The position numbers and the translations under genes were made by a program. This document shows, piece after piece, positions 4,353 through 57,117 of a DNA stretch of 64,000 nucleotides. The DNA comes from Thermoproteota archaeon (GTDB taxonomy: Archaea > Asgardarchaeota > Jordiarchaeia > Jordiarchaeales > Freyrarchaeaceae). Under the pieces are notes generated by a model, which did not search any database, had not been told where the DNA came from, and was given only the letters and a program-made list of their open reading frames with translations. The DNA lies in the NCBI GenBank assembly GCA_029258835.1, contig JAPDJY010000034.1, positions 31,036-95,035 of the forward strand. Reading direction: 5' to 3'. Position 1 is the stretch's first letter, and each line of letters opens with the position of its first letter.

Positions 4353-5683
4353 CTAATAACATCCCTCCTCAAGCTCCTTAAGCCAGCTGATTCTTTCCTT
4401 AACGGGTTCACCGAAGGGATTCTGGCGGGACTCCACGTATTCAGCTATCTTCAAGTGTGGGGGTGGAGCATAGCCCAGGCTTACTAGGCGCTGCCTGAGC
4501 TTCTCGATCATGGACGGTACATCTATTTCAAGGGGACACACCTTCACGCATGCGCCACATCCGGTACAGCTAAAGGCTACGGGGGCCGCTTTCTCAACTC
4601 CATGGAAGAACGCTGTGAATATTGCTCCTATGCCGCCGACATACCGGTAGCCCATCACCTGCCCTCCAACCTTACCGTAAACGGGACAGACGTTTAGACA
4701 CGCGCCACATCTAATACAATATGCCGCCTCTTTAAAGTTTGGGATCAAAGATCATACTACTTCTACCATTATCCAGCAGAACTAGGTGGAGTTCTCTGGG
4801 GCCATGTGCTCCGATGGTTGTTGTTAGTTCTATGTCGGCTGTCCTGCTTGGGTCGGTTATAAGTGAAACGTAGCAAGCCATTAGCTGCCCGGTTGCGTTT
4901 GGAGGGAGAAGCTGAACTATCGCCATAGCGTCATCGATCGTTGGGACAACCTTCTCTATACCCGCTACGCAGACGTGTACTGGCGGCACGTTGGAGACGA
5001 AGCGGGCATTCCCCTCATTTTCAAGTATAATCAAGTATAACAATAGTTCCTGTCTCCGCTGCTATTACGTTGGCACCGGTTATCCCGACGTCGGCGCTCA
5101 TGAATTCTCTGCGGAGCAGCTGCCTCGCCGTTAGAGCGAGAGCTTCGACGTTAGGTGAAACCCTTCTACCAGTGGCTTTAGAGAAGAGGGCTGCAACCTC
5201 CTCCTTAGGAACATGGATGGCGGGAACCACCATGTGCGTCGCCCTCTCCCCCCTAAGTTGCACTATGAATTCCCTAAGGTCTGTTTCAACGACCCTGAAC
5301 CCCTCCCTCTCTAAGGCCTCGTTTAAGTCCACTTCCTCCGTAACCATAGATTTACTCTTGATAATTAATTGAGCCTCGTGTTCAGAGCACACTTTAATAA
5401 CGTACTTCCTGAGCTCCTCGGAATCCTCTGACAGGTGAAAGCTGCATCCTAACTCTTCCGCTCTCTCCTTCAGAATGGAAATTAACTGGGTTAAATTCTC
5501 TATCGACCACGCTTTCACCTCTCTCGCCCTCTTCCTTAACCATTGAATGTATGGTAGCGATGCAACTGCTTCCTTTCTTGCCATTGAAAACCGTGCCGTG
5601 GCTCTTTCCAAAGCCAACTGTAGCCTTTCATCACGGATGGCACTGGAAACCTTTTCCTTATACTCTTCGTACCATTCACTCAT
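4353..5683 (-). pseudogene. lutB: LutB/LldF-like LUD + 4Fe-4S protein split into three ORFs by two frameshifts
   Basis: KSKSMVTEE, ETDL.EFIVQL, GITGAN, ENEGN, GAHGP.ELH, CIRCGACLNVCP lie collinearly across ORFs 5021-5683, 4732-5043 and 4353-4748; 10-bp tandem duplication at 5021-5040 and one extra base near 4738-4740. Confidence 0.85.
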
Positions 5684-22313: not shown

Positions 22314-22409
22314 AGCCCCGGGCGGGTATTCCGACTTGCTTCGAACCCGCGACCTGCGGCTCACCCGAACACTTACGAGGCCGCCGCTCTACCACTGAGC
22401 TACCGGGGC
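22314..22409 (-). tRNA. tRNA-Thr(CGT), two 12-nt introns (37/38 22362-22373; 59/60 22328-22339)
   Basis: GCCCCGG/CCGGGGC acceptor, U73, GCGGC-CTCGTA/A-GCCGC anticodon arm, BHB helices CTCG/CGGG and TTCG/CGGA. Confidence 0.9.
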
Positions 22410-22454
22410 TCCGCTCTCCCATATTAAAAGTTCAAAATATAAACCTTTTCTATC

Positions 22455-22672
22455 TGCCTTGCGAAGCAGTTAGGTATTTGGTGGTATTTGTGGGTGTTGG
22501 TGAGTGAACAGGTGGAGGCTGCCCCGGATGCTCAGCCGCCTAGCGGCCTAGAGGGCGGAACCCTCAGATGAGGAGCTCCTAGGCTCCCCCGATAGCCCAC
22601 GAGACCACCCAGGCCGATGCGTGGAAAGGAGTAGACATCCACAAAAGCCCATCTACCCCAAAACCCGCTCCG
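22455..22672 (+). mobile_element. Non-autonomous IS607/IS605-like miniature element, copy A
   Basis: Shares TGCCTTGCGAAGCAGTTA start, GT-rich repeats, a GATG.GG.GCTCC..GG.T.CCCCGA.AGCCC core and a CA-rich end with 51897-52085; right boundary approximate. Confidence 0.65.
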
Positions 22673-50861: not shown

Positions 50862-51884
50862 GTGGATGTCAGTAAGCATCTTTCCCTAAAGCATATTACT
50901 TTCTTTTACCATGGTGGAGCTCTCCTAGAATATCAGGGTATGATACCCGTAAAGGATGGAAACACTACTTACATGATGGCTATTGACCCAGACGAAGCTG
51001 AGCAAGTCCTATCCACATTAACCGTAATTGACTTGGATGGAGGCGCCGTAACGAAGATGATCTATCAACCTCCAAAAGGGGTTTTCTCTGACGGCGTTGA
51101 TCCCCGCTCATTCTTTCAGAGTCTCCTCTCAGGTCTAGTGGGGAAGAACATCAGCGTAGTTATGGACGATGAAAACTCTATTTCAGGTGTTCTCGTCGGT
51201 CTTGATGTGGAAGAAAGCAGCGCTAGGAGAGACCTGTACTTAAACCTCCTTTCATCGGATCAAATACACCGCGTTAAATCATCCGATATAAAGTCCCTCT
51301 CTATAGGGAAAAACGACTCACTTGAACTCAAAAGTGTTATTAGAGGCGAGGTTAAGGCCTACGTTGGATGGGAAATTGATCCCGGATTACCGGGTAAGGA
51401 TAAGCACAGGGTGAGCGTTAGATACCTGCAACCCGTAGAGAGATGGAACGTACTGTATCACCTTTACATGGTAGATAGCACTTGGATCCTTCTTGTATGG
51501 TGTAGCGTAAGCAATCCAACATCTAAGGACTGGAAGAACGTATCTATAACCATCACGACCAATAATTTATCGACTACTAGCAAAAACGAGCAACCTCAAG
51601 GTGATGGAGAAACTATAACATATAATGTTAGTGATCCCGTGACTATACCTAAGTTTTCAAAGATATTAATCCCTGTCTCTAGGCTTGAAGTTGAAGGCGA
51701 ACTTAAAGCAATACGTGGCATGGAAGGAGACCAGCTGTCCCTAACTATTAGAAATAAGAGTGGTCGGCTATGGCTCCCCGGTAAGTTAGTAGTGTGGAAG
51801 GATAACGGGTCGCTTGTGGGGACGGGGGAAATCCCCTTAACAAGGAATGGAGAAGCCGCCTCCATAGTTTTAAACCCCTTATGA
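50862..51884 (+). CDS. DUF4139-like protein
   Basis: L.TLTVID, Sm-like GK.I.V...G.LVG, YL...W...Y, V.NPTSKDWKNV pattern. Confidence 0.6.
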   Translation: MDVSKHLSLKHITFFYHGGALLEYQGMIPVKDGNTTYMMAIDPDEAEQVLSTLTVIDLDGGAVTKMIYQPPKGVFSDGVDPRSFFQSLLSGLVGKNISVVMDDENSISGVLVGLDVEESSARRDLYLNLLSSDQIHRVKSSDIKSLSIGKNDSLELKSVIRGEVKAYVGWEIDPGLPGKDKHRVSVRYLQPVERWNVLYHLYMVDSTWILLVWCSVSNPTSKDWKNVSITITTNNLSTTSKNEQPQGDGETITYNVSDPVTIPKFSKILIPVSRLEVEGELKAIRGMEGDQLSLTIRNKSGRLWLPGKLVVWKDNGSLVGTGEIPLTRNGEAASIVLNPL

Positions 51885-51896
51885 AAAACCTTGAGA

Positions 51897-52085
51897 TGCC
51901 TTGCGAAGCAGTTAAATTTGGTGAGTGTTTGGGGTGCTGGCTTGGCCATAGGGTGGCTATGGGGTGGAGTCTTCGGATGTGGGGCTCCGGGGTTACCCCG
52001 AAAGCCCCATCAGAGGCGTACGCCTCGATGACGGGGAAACGCCTGACAGACCAAAACACACACTACCCATAAAACCTGTCAAGCG
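51897..52085 (+). mobile_element. Non-autonomous IS607/IS605-like miniature element, copy B, with tnpB 3'-end/omegaRNA-like core
   Basis: 18-bp identity to copy A start; translates to LRMWGSGVTPKAP, resembling archaeal TnpB C-termini; nested hairpin GGGGCT-C-CGGGG-TTA-CCCCG-AA-AGCCCC; palindrome GAGGCGTACGCCTC. Confidence 0.7.
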
Positions 52086-52250
52086 TGAACCCCACATGAA
52101 ACATTTTCAATCGTCCAGAAAAACTTAATTAATCTCCCTTTTTCCTTAATTCTTGAGTCCTTTAAGCATAACTGCTAGCTTTAATCAATGAATGATTCTT
52201 TAGGGATTTAAAGAAGAATATAAGCCCCCGTTGAATTAGGCGGTTTTAGA

Positions 52251-53141
52251 ATGAGAGGAATGCGTGGTAGATATGTGAAATACTCAGAAAAGGTTTTGGA
52301 CTGTTTTTCTAGCGGTGAAGACGTTTCGCTTTTCCTTCCACTAGTAAAACTTCTCTCCGAGTACATGGAGAGGCTTTGCGAGGAGTGCATGGAGAATAAG
52401 ATGATCTGTACCCTTCGGCCAATGTGTCCTGACAGAAGATGGTTGAGTCTTCTCATAAAGATAGGAGCAGACGAGAGAGATCTGCCTAAGTACTGCTATA
52501 AGGTACGGTTAAACGAGGTGAAGGCGCTTCTAGGTAAGGTTGGCCATATACACTTTGGTGATGCAGTACTTCAAATTGAAGTTTTTCTAAACCTTCTTTC
52601 GGGTGGCCGCTCGCGCCTCATAGACCCCCTCAGAAGCGGCGACATTGAACGGTTCGTGGAGGGCCTCGTAGCAGAGTTTAAACGGCACCTGCTCAACGTT
52701 ACCCTCCTAACCGGGGATGGATATATACTCCTCCTATCAGACGGAAACGTTTTCTTTTTCAATTTACTGGAAAACATTGTTTTGATTAATCCTGAAGAGA
52801 AGAGGTTTACGTCGGTCCGCGAATTCGTAGACCTAGTGTTAGCAGTACGAGAGCATTACGCTCTACCTCTCGAGGTTGAAGAAGACTTTAAAGGTTTTCC
52901 TAGAGTAACATTGAGGCTCCCCCACCGACCCGACCTAGAATCCATCTTAGAAAAGTTCGTGGGTAGGGTAATGGGCGTGGTAGAGTACGTGGACTACTTC
53001 TGCGGTGATAATTGTTTCACCGTGGAAATAGAGTTTAACCCTGTCTCCGGAAACCCCCCATTAAGGTTTAAGGATGCACTCTATGTGTTGGAACGTATGA
53101 AGGCTCTCTACCAAGAATTCCGCAAGGAACCCCTTTCTTAG
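52251..53141 (+). CDS. Hypothetical protein with N-terminal Cys cluster
   Basis: CEEC-x6-C-x5-C motif; 296 aa. Confidence 0.6.
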   Translation: MRGMRGRYVKYSEKVLDCFSSGEDVSLFLPLVKLLSEYMERLCEECMENKMICTLRPMCPDRRWLSLLIKIGADERDLPKYCYKVRLNEVKALLGKVGHIHFGDAVLQIEVFLNLLSGGRSRLIDPLRSGDIERFVEGLVAEFKRHLLNVTLLTGDGYILLLSDGNVFFFNLLENIVLINPEEKRFTSVREFVDLVLAVREHYALPLEVEEDFKGFPRVTLRLPHRPDLESILEKFVGRVMGVVEYVDYFCGDNCFTVEIEFNPVSGNPPLRFKDALYVLERMKALYQEFRKEPLS

Positions 53142-53184: not shown

Positions 53185-56100
53185 TTGTCTGGGGACCTAG
53201 CTTCAATAGTTGCTGAAAAATTTGGACTTAGGGAAGACGAGTCTAAGATTTATGGGTTACTCTTACTTTACAGAGTACTTACAATTGGAGAGCTAAGTTA
53301 TCATTCGTCATTTCCAACATCTAAAATAGAGCCGATCCTCAGGTCGCTAGAGGAAAAGGGCTTGGTCTCTAGGGTTCCCGGGGTAGTTACTAGGTATGTT
53401 CCCTCAACACCATTCGGTTTGCTGTTTGATGTTGTAGGAGAATTCCTAAGTAAGGCTGAGAGCGCAGAGAAGGGTTTACGTACCAGCTCGGAGATGCTCG
53501 AAGCGGAGCTTAACAGGGCAGTAGATTCCCTTAAAGCAGACTTAAAGGTCGCTGTATCAAGTGAAATGCAAAGCTTAGAAAAAGAAGTCGACAGGTCAAG
53601 CAAACTATTAGAGAAAATTACTGAGCGTGAACAGGCTGAAATGGTGAACTTGGTAAAAGTCATAGACGAACAATCAATGGAACAAGTTAAACAGCACAGC
53701 GTTTTCTGCGAGGAAGCCTCGTCTAAGCTTAAAAATGCAGTCAGCAATGAAATTACACAAAGCTTAAGCCGTGCGGAAGAAACCATAAGGCAAAACGCTT
53801 CAGCCCTTTCAAATACCCTCTCATCAGCATTAAGCAACATTGAACTGTCTTCTAGGAAACTGGAGGAGGAAGTGAGAGAAGGCATAAACAATAGCTCTAC
53901 CAAGGTTGAGTCGTCTACTAGTGAAGCAGTTAAAAAACTGTCAGAAATGGTGGAGGAGGAATATTCCACCATAGAAAAATCGTTTTCTTCAGCAAAGGAA
54001 GATGTGTCAAAGACTGTGGAATCGATTAGGAGCGTTCTGGATAATTATACTGCCTCCGTGAAGAAAACGTCCGAGAGTATTCTTCAAAGGGCAATGGATG
54101 AGCGTAGAGGGCAAGCTGAAAAATTAGCGAAAAACATGAGAAAGTCTATCGAAGATAACACGTCAAACATTGCCAAAAGTATCTCCTCTTTCTACACTTC
54201 AACCATGAAAATGCTTGGATCTTTGAGTAGAGAGCATGAAAAGAAAGTTAGCGAGCTGTCGGAACGCATGGAACGCCTTGTCGATGCAAGCGCCCTTCGC
54301 CTTTCCGAAATGACCGAGAGCGTAAAGGAGAAACTCGCAGAAAGACTTAGCGATTATGCCGAATTCCAAGAAAAAGAGTTGGAATCCGCTTGCTCAAGTC
54401 TCGAGAAAAACCTATCCTCAATATTTAACGAACTTAACAGTTCATCCTCCCTAATAAGGGAGGATGCGTCATCTGCACTTAGTGAAAGCGCCCATGCCGT
54501 AAAAGACGTTCTTAAGCAGGCAGAAAGCAGGTTTGACTCCTTACTCTCAAAACACGTTGAGGACTTAAAGTCGATGATTGGTAATGTTGAGAAAACGATT
54601 TCCACGTCCTTTTCCACGGATAGAGAAGTCGAAGGTAAAAACTTGCTAGAGTTAAAGCAGAATGTTTCTTCTTTAATGGACCTTTCGAGACACGATATCG
54701 TCGAGGCAGCGTCGACTCTTTCCGAAGCAGCTTTTAAGGATGCACATGTTCAAACGCAAGCATTTATTAATGAACTGAGAAAGCTGAGAGAGGACTTTTC
54801 TAAGCGCATTAAAGTAAGCTTAAGGCAAGCTAGAAAGGAGTCCGAGGAGCTTAAGAGCACGGTGTCATCTCTTCTAAGTCAGCGCATCTTCGACATGGAG
54901 GAATATGCGGAGTCCCTGAAGGAGCGCGTTCAGAGAATGGTCAGCGATAGGCTGGAAGAAATGTCCCTAGGAATAGAGGCTCTTCAATCGCATTTCACAG
55001 AAGTAATGGATATGATAATCGTTCGCTTCACCGACTTAATAAATGAAGCCAAAGACAGTTTCTCTCGTTCCCTTAACTTACAGTTATCATTTTTCAAGGA
55101 AAATCTTAGCGAGCTTAACACTACGTTCATCGATGAAATAGATAAGCAGATGGAAGGGGTTAAAAGTGAAGCAAACGAGATCCTATCTGAATTCTCTGAA
55201 AGTTTAGATAGGAGAATCCTGCAAGCTGAAGAATTAGCCTCACGGATAAAAGAAACTACGGATGCAGCGTTACAACACCAGGAAAGGTTCAGCAGGAAAC
55301 TTAGGAATGACCTTGTTGCCCTCCTTCTACAAGGTATAAAACGCCATGTTGACTCCTTTAATAACATAGCAGAATCTCTTAACGAACGGTTGGACGCCCT
55401 CATAGAGTCAAGAATGAACTCCTTAGAGAAGCTCAGGGAAGACCTCCAAAAGAAGATTTCATCTGCTCTAAACTCTGAATTATCCTCTATCGAAGACTCC
55501 ACGTCTAACCTGAGGAAGGAGGCTGCATCCCACCTCTCAAAGAGCGGTAAGGAATGTGCTGAAACCTTAGAAATCGCTACTAAGAAAATAGAGGAGGCGC
55601 TTTCTGAATACGTCACTCTCTACAAGAATTCTTTAGATAATTTTAAGAGAGACCTTTCCGCATTCCTCAAGGAGTCACTGGAAAGGCTATCTCAGTCCTC
55701 TCAGAAAACGTTAGACGAAATTACCTCACATTTAGACATGGAACGCGAAACTATAGTGAACGAGGCGAGGGTTCTAAGTGATTCATCTAAAAAAGCTTTG
55801 GAAAACTATGTTAAGACGTTAAAAAGCCACCTTAACGAGTCGCTAAATGCTCTGTTAAAGGCGGTGTCTGACCAAATCGAGTATTTGAAGAATGAGAAGA
55901 ACATGTTTACGTCGCTTGTAAGAAGCAACGTTGACGAAAACATAAAGGAGTTTGAGAGTCATGTTAAATCGTTACAGTCCTCGTTGTCGTCCCTTCTGGA
56001 AGAAGGGAACGAGAAGGTGTCAGTGAACCTTTCACAACTGGAATCTAGGCTCTTCGACACCCTAGAAAGCGTAAACGAAGTTGTAGGGGAGGCATCACAC

Positions 56101-57117
56101 AGTATTAAGGACGGAAGCGTAGAACTTCTAAAGGAATACTCTAAGGAGGTAATGGACGTGCTGTCACTAATAGGAGAAACTATTAGCAGATATGTCGAGG
56201 AGAACAGGAACCTTTTCGGCTCAAGGATAGGCGAATCAAAGTCGCTTATAAACGACCTTGTAAACTCTCTTTCAACCGAATTAGTAAGCTTAACTAGCGA
56301 GGTTGAGGGGGAGATCTCGTCGTTAACAGAGTCATACACCAGAGAGTCCCTTAACATCGTTCAGGAACTTAGGAACAGGATGGTCAGCACGGTTAAATCG
56401 CAGATTAGTAAGTATGATAAGGAACTTTCTAATTTCGGTAAGGAGACCCTTAAAATGCTATCCGGAGTGGAAGAAAAATATAAGCGCGTCCTTGGAGAAT
56501 TAGCTAGCCAGATATCAATCCGCCTAAGTGAATTCTACGAAAAAGCAGTCACCCGGATAAAAGAAGTCACAATAAACATGGTCGAGACACTAAAATCATT
56601 AGTTGAATCTTCTAAGTCAACGGAGGAACTAGCCCGGATCGCATGGGAGGAATTCGGGAAAAAGCCTCTGAGTATAGAGAAAACGTGTTTTGTTGCAACT
56701 AAGGAGGCTGTCCTCCTAAAAATAAAGGACATGGTTACACGCACAAAAAAGATCTTAATATTAGCAATGCCACACATAAAAGACGTTCCAATCGAAGAGG
56801 TACTACGGCTGGAGCCCCCAGCAAGGATCTACGTCTTCACAGACTTCCACCTTCCCTCTGACTTGGATATTGTTAAAAGACTAATTGGAAGGAGCAATTT
56901 ACGCCTCTGGAAAACCGAGGAGAAGTCCTTCTATCTGTGTTTAAGGGATGAAGAGGAGGTTTTGGCTGCCCCGGTAGCCGAGGAGGAACCGGTAATAGCG
57001 ATAGCAAGCGAGGATCCAAGCTACGTCCAAGCTTACCGGCTGACGATCACCCCTTACCTAAGATGGAAAGCTAAAGAGTTAAGGAGGAAAGACATAAATA
57101 GCCTGTCCTCACCGTAG
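53185..57117 (+). CDS. TrmB-like wHTH + ~1050-aa helical region + TrmB C-terminal-like domain
   Basis: FGL..DESKIY..LL...TIGELS...IL.SLEEKGLV HTH; C-terminal KIKDMV.R.KK.L.LAMP...LRDEEEVL. Confidence 0.75.
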   Translation: MSGDLASIVAEKFGLREDESKIYGLLLLYRVLTIGELSYHSSFPTSKIEPILRSLEEKGLVSRVPGVVTRYVPSTPFGLLFDVVGEFLSKAESAEKGLRTSSEMLEAELNRAVDSLKADLKVAVSSEMQSLEKEVDRSSKLLEKITEREQAEMVNLVKVIDEQSMEQVKQHSVFCEEASSKLKNAVSNEITQSLSRAEETIRQNASALSNTLSSALSNIELSSRKLEEEVREGINNSSTKVESSTSEAVKKLSEMVEEEYSTIEKSFSSAKEDVSKTVESIRSVLDNYTASVKKTSESILQRAMDERRGQAEKLAKNMRKSIEDNTSNIAKSISSFYTSTMKMLGSLSREHEKKVSELSERMERLVDASALRLSEMTESVKEKLAERLSDYAEFQEKELESACSSLEKNLSSIFNELNSSSSLIREDASSALSESAHAVKDVLKQAESRFDSLLSKHVEDLKSMIGNVEKTISTSFSTDREVEGKNLLELKQNVSSLMDLSRHDIVEAASTLSEAAFKDAHVQTQAFINELRKLREDFSKRIKVSLRQARKESEELKSTVSSLLSQRIFDMEEYAESLKERVQRMVSDRLEEMSLGIEALQSHFTEVMDMIIVRFTDLINEAKDSFSRSLNLQLSFFKENLSELNTTFIDEIDKQMEGVKSEANEILSEFSESLDRRILQAEELASRIKETTDAALQHQERFSRKLRNDLVALLLQGIKRHVDSFNNIAESLNERLDALIESRMNSLEKLREDLQKKISSALNSELSSIEDSTSNLRKEAASHLSKSGKECAETLEIATKKIEEALSEYVTLYKNSLDNFKRDLSAFLKESLERLSQSSQKTLDEITSHLDMERETIVNEARVLSDSSKKALENYVKTLKSHLNESLNALLKAVSDQIEYLKNEKNMFTSLVRSNVDENIKEFESHVKSLQSSLSSLLEEGNEKVSVNLSQLESRLFDTLESVNEVVGEASHSIKDGSVELLKEYSKEVMDVLSLIGETISRYVEENRNLFGSRIGESKSLINDLVNSLSTELVSLTSEVEGEISSLTESYTRESLNIVQELRNRMVSTVKSQISKYDKELSNFGKETLKMLSGVEEKYKRVLGELASQISIRLSEFYEKAVTRIKEVTINMVETLKSLVESSKSTEELARIAWEEFGKKPLSIEKTCFVATKEAVLLKIKDMVTRTKKILILAMPHIKDVPIEEVLRLEPPARIYVFTDFHLPSDLDIVKRLIGRSNLRLWKTEEKSFYLCLRDEEEVLAAPVAEEEPVIAIASEDPSYVQAYRLTITPYLRWKAKELRRKDINSLSSP

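What the first reader, a model, noticed from the sequence alone, without database searches (positions are those of the whole stretch)
51897..52085. Miniature transposon keeping an omegaRNA-like scaffold but no nuclease or transposase (copy B)
Seen: a ~190-bp intergenic element starting TGCCTTGCGAAGCAGTTA, then GT-rich repeats, a nested hairpin, the palindrome GAGGCGTACGCCTC, GATGACGGGGAAA and a CA-rich end roughly inverse to the start. It translates to LRMWGSGVTPKAP. Established: tnpB 3' ends overlap the omegaRNA, whose guide is the flank beyond the right end, and IS607 ends carry short repeats inverted between ends. Inference: a family of guide-RNA mini-cassettes that could program TnpB in trans, each copy with a different guide.
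Basis: partly seen in the sequence, partly recalled or inferred. Interest (0 to 1): 0.72.

Follow-up and report, generated by a model that had tools for sequence, protein, structure and literature searches.

The report
Gene-less mini-transposon carrying TnpB guide-RNA scaffold
This 195-bp intergenic element is one of about 23 copies of a protein-less mini-transposon in an Asgard (Jordarchaeia-related) archaeon; it keeps a transposon left end and the guide-RNA scaffold of a TnpB nuclease, which is a clear example of a kind of element already described.

Summary
Window 51899-52093 (+) is a sharply bounded repeat. The genome holds 23 full copies (mean identity 86%, maximum 95%) and 7 copies of the 3' 122 nt only.

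All 7 short copies lie directly after a TnpB zinc-ribbon domain. The 3' 122 nt are therefore the last 40 codons, stop codon and right end of a 1.4-kb element that encodes a small HTH protein and TnpB. This is where TnpB guide (omega) RNAs are encoded.

One parent copy (contig C9) has an intact TnpB with the D-E-D triad and zinc finger. In the conserved scaffold stretch I counted one difference between it and the window copy.

The hairpins are 84% paired, against 27-47% in shifted controls, with 8-9 compensated pairs. This holds across copies and relatives from other archaeal phyla.

The ends, the HTH homology and a CC dinucleotide at both junctions point to the IS607 (serine-recombinase) type. 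The left flank reads YG before CC in 22 of 23 copies.

Use of the RNA by TnpB in trans is inferred, not shown. The copies are old and no matching recombinase was found.

Stand-alone mobilised omegaRNAs and omegaRNA-bearing PATEs are already published. Earlier runs of this scan reached the same reading on other copies in this genome. I rate it a new member of a known kind, of modest interest.

The parts
51897..51898 (+). Target-side dinucleotide TG (the YG of a YGCC left-junction motif); candidate TAM together with the CC core
   Evidence: Flank counts over 23 copies: position -1 is G in 22/23 and position -2 is C or T in 22/23. The same Y-G precedes GCC... in five relatives from other archaea.
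51899..51900 (+). CC at the left junction (putative serine-recombinase core dinucleotide; the matching CC is at 52092-52093)
   Evidence: CC follows ...GTGAACC in 25-26 of 29 copies and precedes TTGCG in all copies. Other IS607 elements of this genome end ...GAACGG. The GG-core model comes from 10.1101/2023.11.20.567912.
51899..51944 (+). Left-end module. Its first 10 nt or so are almost invariant among copies, and the 16-mer GCCTTGCGAAGCAGTT is shared with at least 4 other mini-element families and, in a variant form, with the HTH-TnpB parents
   Evidence: Diversity is 0.009 over 51898-51907. Genome-wide left-end matches are and the parent left-end alignment.
51903..51919 (+). BRE/TATA-like box GCGAAGCAG-TTAAATTT (promoter-like; inferred)
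   Evidence: Conserved in all copies (diversity 0.05). The same 20-mer sits about 30 nt upstream of an ordinary gene start in an Undinarchaeota MAG. No transcript data are available.
51921..51933 (+). GT-rich subterminal repeat, inverted relative to the CA-rich 52051-52063
   Evidence: Inverted pair I3, 13 nt, 85% complementary. The same GT-rich and CA-rich pair is present in the parent ends.
51945..51970 (+). Linker specific to the mini-element, with a small hairpin (CCATAG/CTATGG here; GGCCAC/GTGGCC in most copies); absent from the parents
   Evidence: Alignment of all copies; direct repeats D1 and D2.
51971..52093 (+). OmegaRNA-scaffold module: relic of the last 40 codons and stop of tnpB, which also forms the right end
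   Evidence: There are 7 tnpB-attached copies at 80-94% identity, each starting where the PF07282 hit ends. The TnpB frame runs to TGA within ...GCGTGAACCCC.
51981..52008 (+). 5' nested stem-loop: P1 GGGGCU/AGCCCC enclosing H1 C-GGGG/CCCC-G. The strand 52005-52008 can alternatively pair with GGGG 52033-52036 (P2)
   Evidence: 94-97% of cells are paired. P2 has 2 pairs with changes on both sides, for example CUCC/GGAG in the Baldrarchaeota relative.
52013..52026 (+). Hairpin H2 (the palindrome GAGGCGTACGCCTC)
   Evidence: 100% paired in 34 sequences, and 3 of 5 pairs carry compensatory changes. Three copies hold a different hairpin, GGGC/GCCC, at this position. The loop is the most variable stretch.
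52040..52085 (+). Terminal long stem P3: CGCCUGACAG (52040-52049) with CUGUCAAGCG (52076-52085); the CA-rich loop lies between the two strands
   Evidence: Four pairs carry compensatory changes (89-142 CG to GC, 93-138 AU to GC, 94-137, 97-134). An equivalent 10-12-bp stem of different sequence precedes GAACCC(C) in distant TnpB relatives. The window copy has one C.A mismatch, whereas most copies have two.
52086..52093 (+). 3' tail UGAACCCC: relic tnpB stop codon (52086-52088) and right-end terminus
   Evidence: GAACCC(C) ends the homologous region in all relatives.
52094..52113 (+). Predicted guide segment (flank next to the right end, ACATGAAACATTTTCAATCG); inferred
   Evidence: This position follows the published OMEGA model (PMC10691335). 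The sequence is unique in the genome, with no off-site match of 20/22 or better, and has no exact match in viral contigs.

Best explanation
The element is a non-autonomous, protein-less derivative (MITE-like) of an archaeal IS607-type element. It joins a shortened left end, which carries the recombinase-recognition terminus and a promoter-like BRE/TATA box, to the last 122 nt of an HTH-plus-tnpB element. That 3' piece is both the right end and the scaffold of the TnpB guide (omega) RNA.

Shown: the homology, the boundaries, the copy number, an intact cognate TnpB elsewhere in the genome, and conserved and partly covarying hairpins.

Inferred:
1. A serine recombinase (TnpA_S) supplied in trans moves the element, exchanging at a CC dinucleotide in YGCC-like targets.
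2. The element is transcribed, either from its own box or by read-through from the co-oriented upstream gene that ends 14 nt before it.
3. The transcript runs into the flank, so each copy yields an omegaRNA whose guide is its own 3' flank.
4. TnpB from the intact parent loads this RNA and cuts the vacated site (YGCC followed by the flank). This drives re-copying of the mini-element by recombination, the published homing/retention model.
For: - Repeat family: 23 full and 7 tnpB-attached copies.
- All 7 short copies start where a PF07282 TnpB domain hit ends, and the TnpB frame runs to TGA inside the terminus.
- The parent TnpB on C9 matches PF07282 and PF01385. Its D-E-D triad and zinc finger align with ISDra2 TnpB 8bf8.
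- By my reading of alignment A3, the window copy differs from that parent at one position between columns 8 and 100.
- Structure: 83.9% of cells are paired, against 27-47% when the 3' partners are slid. There are 8-9 pairs with changes on both sides and 0 of 500 shuffles reach the covariation score.
- Distant TnpB relatives from several archaeal phyla (Desulfurococcaceae, Baldrarchaeota, Archaeoglobaceae, Jordarchaeia and others) keep the same layout with different stem sequences, and all end in GAACCC(C).
- IS607 type: the parent's 58-aa HTH_17/MerR ORF is up to 56% identical to the N-terminal HTH of the TnpA_S genes of this genome. Left-end motifs are similar. CC is at both junctions and YG on the left flank in 22/23 copies.
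- The orthologous spacer in two related genomes lacks the element, and the full element was found in none of 40 relatives searched.
- At least two further mini-element families (D, E) keep a tnpB 3' segment that I estimate at about 200 nt. A Clostridium IS607 needed only 60 bp of right end for excision.
- Published precedent: stand-alone omegaRNAs act in trans (PMC10691335; PMC10055086).
Against: - There are no transcript data, so the promoter and the guide are inferred.
- The copies are old: no pair is more than 95% identical and the mean is 86%.
- The omegaRNA module is no better conserved (diversity 0.108) than the left-end module (0.084). Selection on the RNA within this genome is therefore not demonstrated. 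The shuffle control for cells paired is only slightly below the observed value (82.2% against 83.9%).
- The terminal stem carries C.A mismatches at two positions in 22 of 34 sequences, including the intact parent.
- No TnpA_S gene with matching GCC.../...GAACCCC ends was found in this 95%-complete, 91-contig assembly.
- The mini-element's left end is only related to the left end of the HTH-TnpB parents, not identical. The direct parent is therefore missing, or the element is chimeric.
- No base-precise empty site was found.
Confidence: 0.75

Rival explanations
1. It is the same kind of deletion derivative, but the omegaRNA part is a passive passenger. The 122 nt were kept only because they contain the right end that the recombinase needs. 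The copies are decaying relics that give no functional guide RNA.
For: - The family is old, with at most 95% identity between copies.
- Diversity is even across the modules, and only the left-end terminus is strongly conserved.
- C.A mismatches occur in the terminal stem of most copies.
- The CA-rich loop doubles as a subterminal repeat inverted relative to the left end. DNA-level constraints could therefore explain part of the conservation.
- All copies of one family descend from a single deletion event, so the 122-nt breakpoint is one observation.
Against: - Hairpin H2 is intact in all 34 sequences while its loop is the most variable stretch, and in three copies it is replaced by a different hairpin.
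- The window copy carries a compensating C-G pair in P3.
- Families D and E independently keep a tnpB 3' segment estimated at about 200 nt, more than the 60 bp sufficient for a studied IS607 right end.
- Published stand-alone omegaRNAs do work in trans.
Confidence: 0.2
2. It is a host-domesticated small RNA gene, for example a regulatory or K-turn/C-D-box-like RNA, that merely descends from a transposon.
For: It is GC-rich and structured, and lies in an AT-rich spacer. GAUGA and CUGA motifs lie close together at 52028-52045. A promoter-like box is present.
Against: - There are 23 dispersed copies with unrelated flanks.
- The element is absent from the orthologous spacer of relatives.
- No Rfam family matches, even at E up to 10.
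- The CUGA is not kept in relatives, which read UUGA or UCGG.
- GAUGA is explained by the TnpB codons ...S-M-T/M-G...
Confidence: 0.03
3. It is a pseudogene fragment of tnpB left by local decay of a full-length element at this site, not a mobile mini-element.
For: The 3' part translates to the TnpB C-terminus.
Against: There are 22 other copies with the same two breakpoints, the same 73-nt 5' module and unrelated flanks. Independent local decay cannot explain this.
Confidence: 0.02

Closest known systems
Stand-alone mobilised omegaRNAs of OMEGA systems (Altae-Tran et al. 2021, as summarised in PMC10691335)
   Same: The elements have no protein. They carry an omegaRNA scaffold next to a transposon end, occur in several copies in genomes that also hold the effector, and take their guide from the flank. 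Those elements were shown to work in trans.
   Different: This case is in an archaeon, within an IS607-like lineage whose parents carry an HTH-only ORF plus TnpB. Activity here is untested.
PATE-like minimal IS200/IS605 elements of Geobacillus stearothermophilus that encode omegaRNAs (Meers et al. 2023, PMC10055086)
   Same: Non-autonomous, gene-less, left end plus right end with an omegaRNA. TnpA and TnpB must both be supplied in trans.
   Different: Those are Y1-transposase (peel-and-paste) elements with subterminal DNA hairpins and a 4-5-nt TAM on the left flank. This element has IS607-type ends and a dinucleotide junction.
IS607 / IStron elements of Clostridium with TnpA_S and TnpB (10.1101/2023.11.20.567912)
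   Same: The TnpA_S has a MerR-like HTH. A core dinucleotide is present at both junctions, and a 4-nt target/TAM contains that dinucleotide (TGGG there, YGCC here). The omegaRNA lies at the tnpB 3' end and right end. Engineered mini-IS elements with an omegaRNA work in trans.
   Different: The core is CC instead of GG. The parents lack the recombinase catalytic domain. There is no group I intron. The mini-element here is natural and multi-copy.
Archaeal TnpB 3'-overlapping transcripts (recalled from memory: sense-overlapping transcripts of IS1341-type genes in haloarchaea; Sulfolobus TnpB, 10.1101/2023.03.06.531077, listed but not read)
   Same: An RNA is encoded over the 3' end of archaeal tnpB.
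   Different: Those RNAs are attached to tnpB, whereas here the RNA module is detached.

Membership tests
Stand-alone / mobilised omegaRNA element (OMEGA) | Sequence homologous to the tnpB 3' end and right end, where the omegaRNA scaffold is encoded | tested here: met
   Seven tnpB-attached copies at 80-94% identity start at the end of the PF07282 hit and run to the terminus.
Stand-alone / mobilised omegaRNA element (OMEGA) | No effector or transposase gene inside the element | tested here: met
   The element is 195 bp and contains only a frame relic of 40 codons. The ORFs listed over it (63 and 54 aa) are not shared features of the copies.
Stand-alone / mobilised omegaRNA element (OMEGA) | Compatible, apparently active effector elsewhere in the same genome | tested here: met
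   C9 TnpB is 394 aa and uninterrupted, with the D-E-D triad and zinc finger present. Its scaffold is nearly identical to the window copy.
Stand-alone / mobilised omegaRNA element (OMEGA) | Conserved RNA secondary structure with covariation | tested here: met
   83.9% paired against 27-47% in slid controls; 8-9 pairs with changes on both sides; equivalent stems of different sequence in distant relatives. The choice between P1 and P2 is unresolved, and P3 has C.A mismatches.
Stand-alone / mobilised omegaRNA element (OMEGA) | Transcribed, processed and loaded by TnpB; guide taken from the flank | not testable with these tools
   No RNA data are available. The flanks differ between copies and are unique in the genome.
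IS607 family (serine-recombinase TnpA_S) derivative | Ends shared with an element that encodes TnpA_S | tested here: inconclusive
   The parent's HTH ORF is up to 56% identical to the TnpA_S N-terminal HTH, and the left-end motif GAAGCAGT resembles that of the C64 and C3 IS607 copies. No TnpA_S gene with GCC.../...GAACCCC ends was found. One degraded IS607 copy on C56 ends ...GCTGAACCCC.
IS607 family (serine-recombinase TnpA_S) derivative | Identical core dinucleotide at both junctions and no target-site duplication | tested here: met
   CC lies at the left junction in all copies and after ...GTGAACC in 25-26 of 29. The flanks show no duplication.
PATE / IS200-IS605 (Y1 transposase) mini-element | Conserved 4-5-nt TAM directly 5' of the left end, subterminal DNA hairpins, and a partner Y1 TnpA | tested here: not met
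   The left flank is conserved only at YG. The two Y1_Tnp hits in the genome contain stop codons. The ends are of IS607 type.
Classical MITE (DDE transposon derivative) | Terminal inverted repeats and a target-site duplication | tested here: not met
   There is only a subterminal 13-nt imperfect inverted repeat and no duplication of the flanks. 'MITE' is used here only in the loose sense.
Any curated Rfam RNA family | Covariance-model match | tested here: not met
   No gathering-score hits in the window. Only two chance-level hits at E 0.3-0.9 on the opposite strand.

The most novel reading that the evidence does not exclude
The genome holds a modular set of guide-RNA cassettes. At least five gene-less families share one left-end/promoter module (GCCTTGCGAAGCAGTT...) but carry omegaRNA scaffolds of different TnpB lineages. 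The parents are a conserved, recombinase-less 'HTH + TnpB' element found across several archaeal phyla. If the cassettes are expressed and used, one nuclease gene would serve dozens of guides, a transposon-borne and array-free analogue of a CRISPR locus. The HTH-only protein could then be a dedicated end-binding or regulatory partner rather than a broken transposase.
Probability: 0.15. Interest if true: 0.6.

Novelty: new member of a known kind. Interest (0 to 1): 0.3.

Why it matters
The element documents, with exact anatomy, a natural detached TnpB guide-RNA module in an Asgard-lineage archaeon and in the IS607 branch. Such elements are less described there than in bacterial IS605.

It yields three testable predictions: a YGCC TAM, a CC crossover dinucleotide, and a defined scaffold of about 123 nt that differs at one position from the scaffold next to an intact 394-aa TnpB.

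It does not change the current picture of OMEGA systems. The idea of stand-alone omegaRNAs working in trans is already published.

Tried and rejected
- Rfam search of the whole window at gathering scores, and of the locus at E up to 10: nothing relevant.
- tRNA scan: no hits.
- Exact-pattern scan of 185,579 species genomes with a scaffold 20-mer: 0 hits.
- The same scan with the left-end 20-mer: 5 hits, about what chance would give. One is an ordinary promoter region in an Undinarchaeota MAG, not a mini-element.
- Empty-site search with joined flanks in the own genome: only a 77%-identical paralogous region, too diverged to place the junction.
- Alignment of the orthologous spacer of two related genomes: the element is absent, but the spacer cannot be aligned base by base.
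- Guide searches: no off-target of 20/22 or better in the own genome for any copy, and no exact viral match for the window copy's guide. A defence-like targeting role therefore has no support.
- C/D-box or K-turn sRNA reading: rejected, because the motif is not conserved in relatives.
- RNAalifold on the close copies alone gave a weak structure, with a GGG/CCC long-range pair that is not kept in relatives.
- A possible extension of P3 by GGGG/CCCC is likewise not conserved in relatives.
- Single-sequence folding of the + strand was not significantly more stable than shuffles (z = -1.7).

Full report
**Observation.** Its 18-mer start occurs twice in the window, against 0.04 expected by chance.

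A search of the window's own assembly (2.72 Mb, 91 contigs, 94.7% complete) found 23 full-length copies of about 195 bp at 83-94% identity. It also found 7 copies of only the 3' 122 nt. Aligning all copies with their flanks gives sharp borders: similarity begins at G-CC-TTGCGAAGC and ends at ...AAGCGTGAACCCC. Nucleotide diversity among copies is about 0.74 in the flanks and about 0.1 inside.

In window coordinates the element is 51899-52093, 8 nt longer than the stated end. It belongs to another family with a different 3' part.

**What the 3' half is.** The 7 short copies share conserved sequence upstream of the repeat. A scan of the genome with Pfam PF07282 (TnpB/Cas12f zinc-ribbon domain) put a hit directly in front of every one of them, ending exactly where the repeat starts.

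In the best copy (contig C9, locus L042) an open frame of 394 codons from a conserved TTG runs through the whole 122 nt. It stops at the TGA inside ...GCGTGAACCCC. The protein matches PF07282 and PF01385. Aligned with the solved ISDra2 TnpB (8bf8), it keeps the RuvC D-E-D residues and the CxxC...CxxC finger.

The 3' 122 nt of the window element are thus the last 40 codons and stop of tnpB, which also form the right end. By established knowledge of OMEGA systems, this is the region that encodes the omegaRNA scaffold, with the guide lying just beyond the right end (PMC10691335).

Of the parent copies only C9 is uninterrupted. The others are frameshifted or cut by contig ends.

**What the 5' half is.** The parents begin with GCCTTGTGTAGCTGTT..., a TATA-like box and GT-rich repeats. 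They then carry a 58-codon ORF that matches HTH_17/MerR and overlaps the tnpB start. The mini-element begins with a related but not identical left end: GCCTTGCGAAGCAGTT, then TTAAAT, then the same GT-rich motif. A 26-nt linker with a small hairpin follows.

The first 10 nt are almost invariant among copies (diversity 0.009), as expected of a recombinase-recognition terminus. The GT-rich stretch is 85% complementary to the CA-rich stretch near the other end.

**Which transposon family.** The small HTH ORF is up to 56% identical to the N-terminal HTH of the serine-recombinase TnpA genes of this genome. Those genes lie next to other tnpB genes as classical IS607 pairs. Their left ends carry a similar GAAGCAGT motif and their right ends finish ...GAACGG. 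This family finishes ...GAACC-CC instead.

Junction counts over all copies show CC at both junctions. G is at -1 in 22 of 23 copies, a pyrimidine is at -2 in 22 of 23, and the flanks are otherwise unrelated with no duplication. The same Y-G precedes GCC... in relatives from other archaea.

This parallels the published IS607 picture: a core dinucleotide at both ends, embedded in a 4-nt target that is also the TnpB TAM (TGGG with a GG core in Clostridium). I therefore read YGCC as the likely target/TAM and CC as the crossover. This is an inference, because no base-precise empty site was found.

The two Y1-transposase hits in the genome contain stops, and there is no 4-5-nt TAM on the left flank. 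The IS200/IS605 (PATE) type is therefore not met.

No TnpA_S gene with matching ends was found. One degraded IS607 copy on C56 ends ...GCTGAACCCC. The mobilising enzyme remains unidentified in this fragmented assembly.

**Is the RNA structure real?** TnpB homologues at 60-74% identity occur in MAGs of Desulfurococcaceae, Baldrarchaeota, Archaeoglobaceae, Nitrososphaeria, Brockarchaeota, Jordarchaeia and Bathyarchaeia.

Their 3' ends all finish GAACCC(C). Just before it they keep a 10-12-bp stem whose sequence differs between lineages, and further upstream a GGGG-UUA-CCCC hairpin.

On an alignment of 22 mini-elements, 7 parents and 5 close relatives (A3) I tested a named structure: a nested 5' stem-loop, the palindrome hairpin and the terminal stem. 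The results were:
- 83.9% of cells pair, against 27-47% when the 3' partners are slid by 1-3 columns.
- 8-9 pairs have changes on both sides.
- No shuffle of 500 reaches the covariation score.
- The palindrome hairpin pairs in all 34 sequences while its loop is the most variable stretch. In three copies a different hairpin replaces it.

There are weak points too. The shuffle control for cells paired is only slightly lower (82.2%). Two positions of the terminal stem are C.A mismatches in 22 of 34 sequences, the intact parent included. Two alternative pairings of the GCCCC strand cannot be told apart.

The window copy is a good one. Over A3 columns 8-100 I counted one difference from the intact parent, and one of the two C.A positions is a C-G pair.

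**Age, spread and context.** No two copies are more than 95% identical, and the mean is 86%. The family is old, and the omegaRNA module is not better conserved than the left-end module.

The complete element was found only in this genome among 41 searched. Only the tnpB-attached scaffold occurs in three others.

One same-family genome (G004) gave loci identical to contigs titled Candidatus Jordarchaeia archaeon QC4. The host is therefore a Jordarchaeia-related Asgard archaeon.

In the window the element lies 14 nt after the stop of a 340-codon ORF and 158 nt before the next ORF, both on the same strand. Two genomes of the sister genus keep the two genes adjacent with an AT-rich spacer and no element.

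The predicted guide (52094-52113) has no second near-perfect match in the genome, and neither do the guides of the other copies. It has no exact viral match either. This fits a guide aimed only at the element's own vacated site.

**Mechanism and rivals.** I think the published homing model, applied to a detached module, is the most likely mechanism. A recombinase in trans moves the element. Transcription from the left-end box or read-through yields scaffold plus flank. TnpB from the intact parent uses that RNA to cut the empty site, and recombination restores the element.

Published work shows that stand-alone omegaRNAs act in trans, that PATE-like elements often encode omegaRNAs, and that 40 bp of left end and 60 bp of right end suffice for IS607 excision. 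Against that last figure, this family keeps 122 nt of tnpB 3' end, and I estimate that families D and E keep about 200 nt. Retention of the RNA thus looks more than accidental.

The main rival is that the scaffold is a passive passenger in old, decaying copies. The age and the even diversity keep this rival at about 0.2.

**Novelty.** The kind is known. This is a new member in an unusual host and IS branch. Earlier runs of this scan reached the same reading on other copies of this family. I re-derived each point independently here.

Noticed in passing
window 22456-22668 (+); also G000:C27:30199-30411 and C66:~5150-5204: 'Copy A' is a separate mini-element family of about 3 copies. It has the same left-end 16-mer and GT-rich box but a different GC-rich 3' module ending ...CCCCAAAACCC. 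That module recurs at two contig ends (C60:7-128, C82:4253-4373), where a parent tnpB may be cut off.
   Followed up: partly
G000: C6:2950-3189, C33:16514-16753, C81:1760-1999, C82:10-244, C9:~55334-55570 (family C); C20:22201-22450, C31:28680 (family D); C8:38936-39190, C86:841-1083 (family E): At least three more gene-less families start with GCCTTGCG(A/T)A... Each carries the 3' end of a different TnpB lineage: D matches the tnpB end at C56:1012-1224 and E the one at C56:6428-6568. Family C carries a scaffold of the type seen in Archaeoglobales and other relatives. One left-end type is thus combined with several omegaRNA modules.
   Followed up: partly
L042:555-731 (G000:C9) and loci L048, L049, L056, L058, L059, L063, L068: A roughly 55-aa HTH_17/MerR-only ORF, homologous to the N-terminal domain of IS607 TnpA_S but lacking the recombinase domain, lies directly upstream of tnpB and overlaps it. 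It is found in relatives from several archaeal phyla at 40-81% identity. It looks like a conserved 'HTH + TnpB' element design rather than a local truncation. Its role is unknown.
   Followed up: partly
alignment A3, column pairs 90-141 and 94-137 (window 52043/52082 and 52047/52078): Two positions of the terminal omegaRNA stem are C.A mismatches in 22 of 34 sequences, including the intact parent. U-A or C-G occurs in the rest. The 5' partners lie in TnpB codons (Leu CTG/TTG; Thr ACA against Ile ATA), so coding and pairing constraints may conflict. Alternatively, an A+.C wobble may be tolerated.
   Followed up: no
window 22380-22412: Directly upstream of copy A lies a stretch that looks like the 3' half of a tRNA on the minus strand (...ctaccactgagctaccggggc...). 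Neither ARAGORN nor Rfam reports a tRNA in the whole 64-kb window. It may be a tRNA fragment, or a split or intron-bearing gene.
   Followed up: no
window 53185-57117 (+): A 1310-aa ORF with an N-terminal TrmB-type HTH, followed by about 1000 residues that give weak apolipoprotein/ApoLp-III-like (long helical repeat) hits. This is an unusual architecture for a transcription-factor-like protein. The two ORFs flanking the element (50862-51884 and 52251-53141) have no Pfam match.
   Followed up: no
L077:5648-5667 (Undinarchaeota MAG CAZWFW010000011.1): The left-end 20-mer GCCTTGCGAAACAGTTAAAT occurs about 30 nt upstream of the ATG of an ordinary gene, with no mini-element. This is probably a chance match. 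It shows that the left-end terminus reads like a standard archaeal BRE/TATA promoter.
   Followed up: partly
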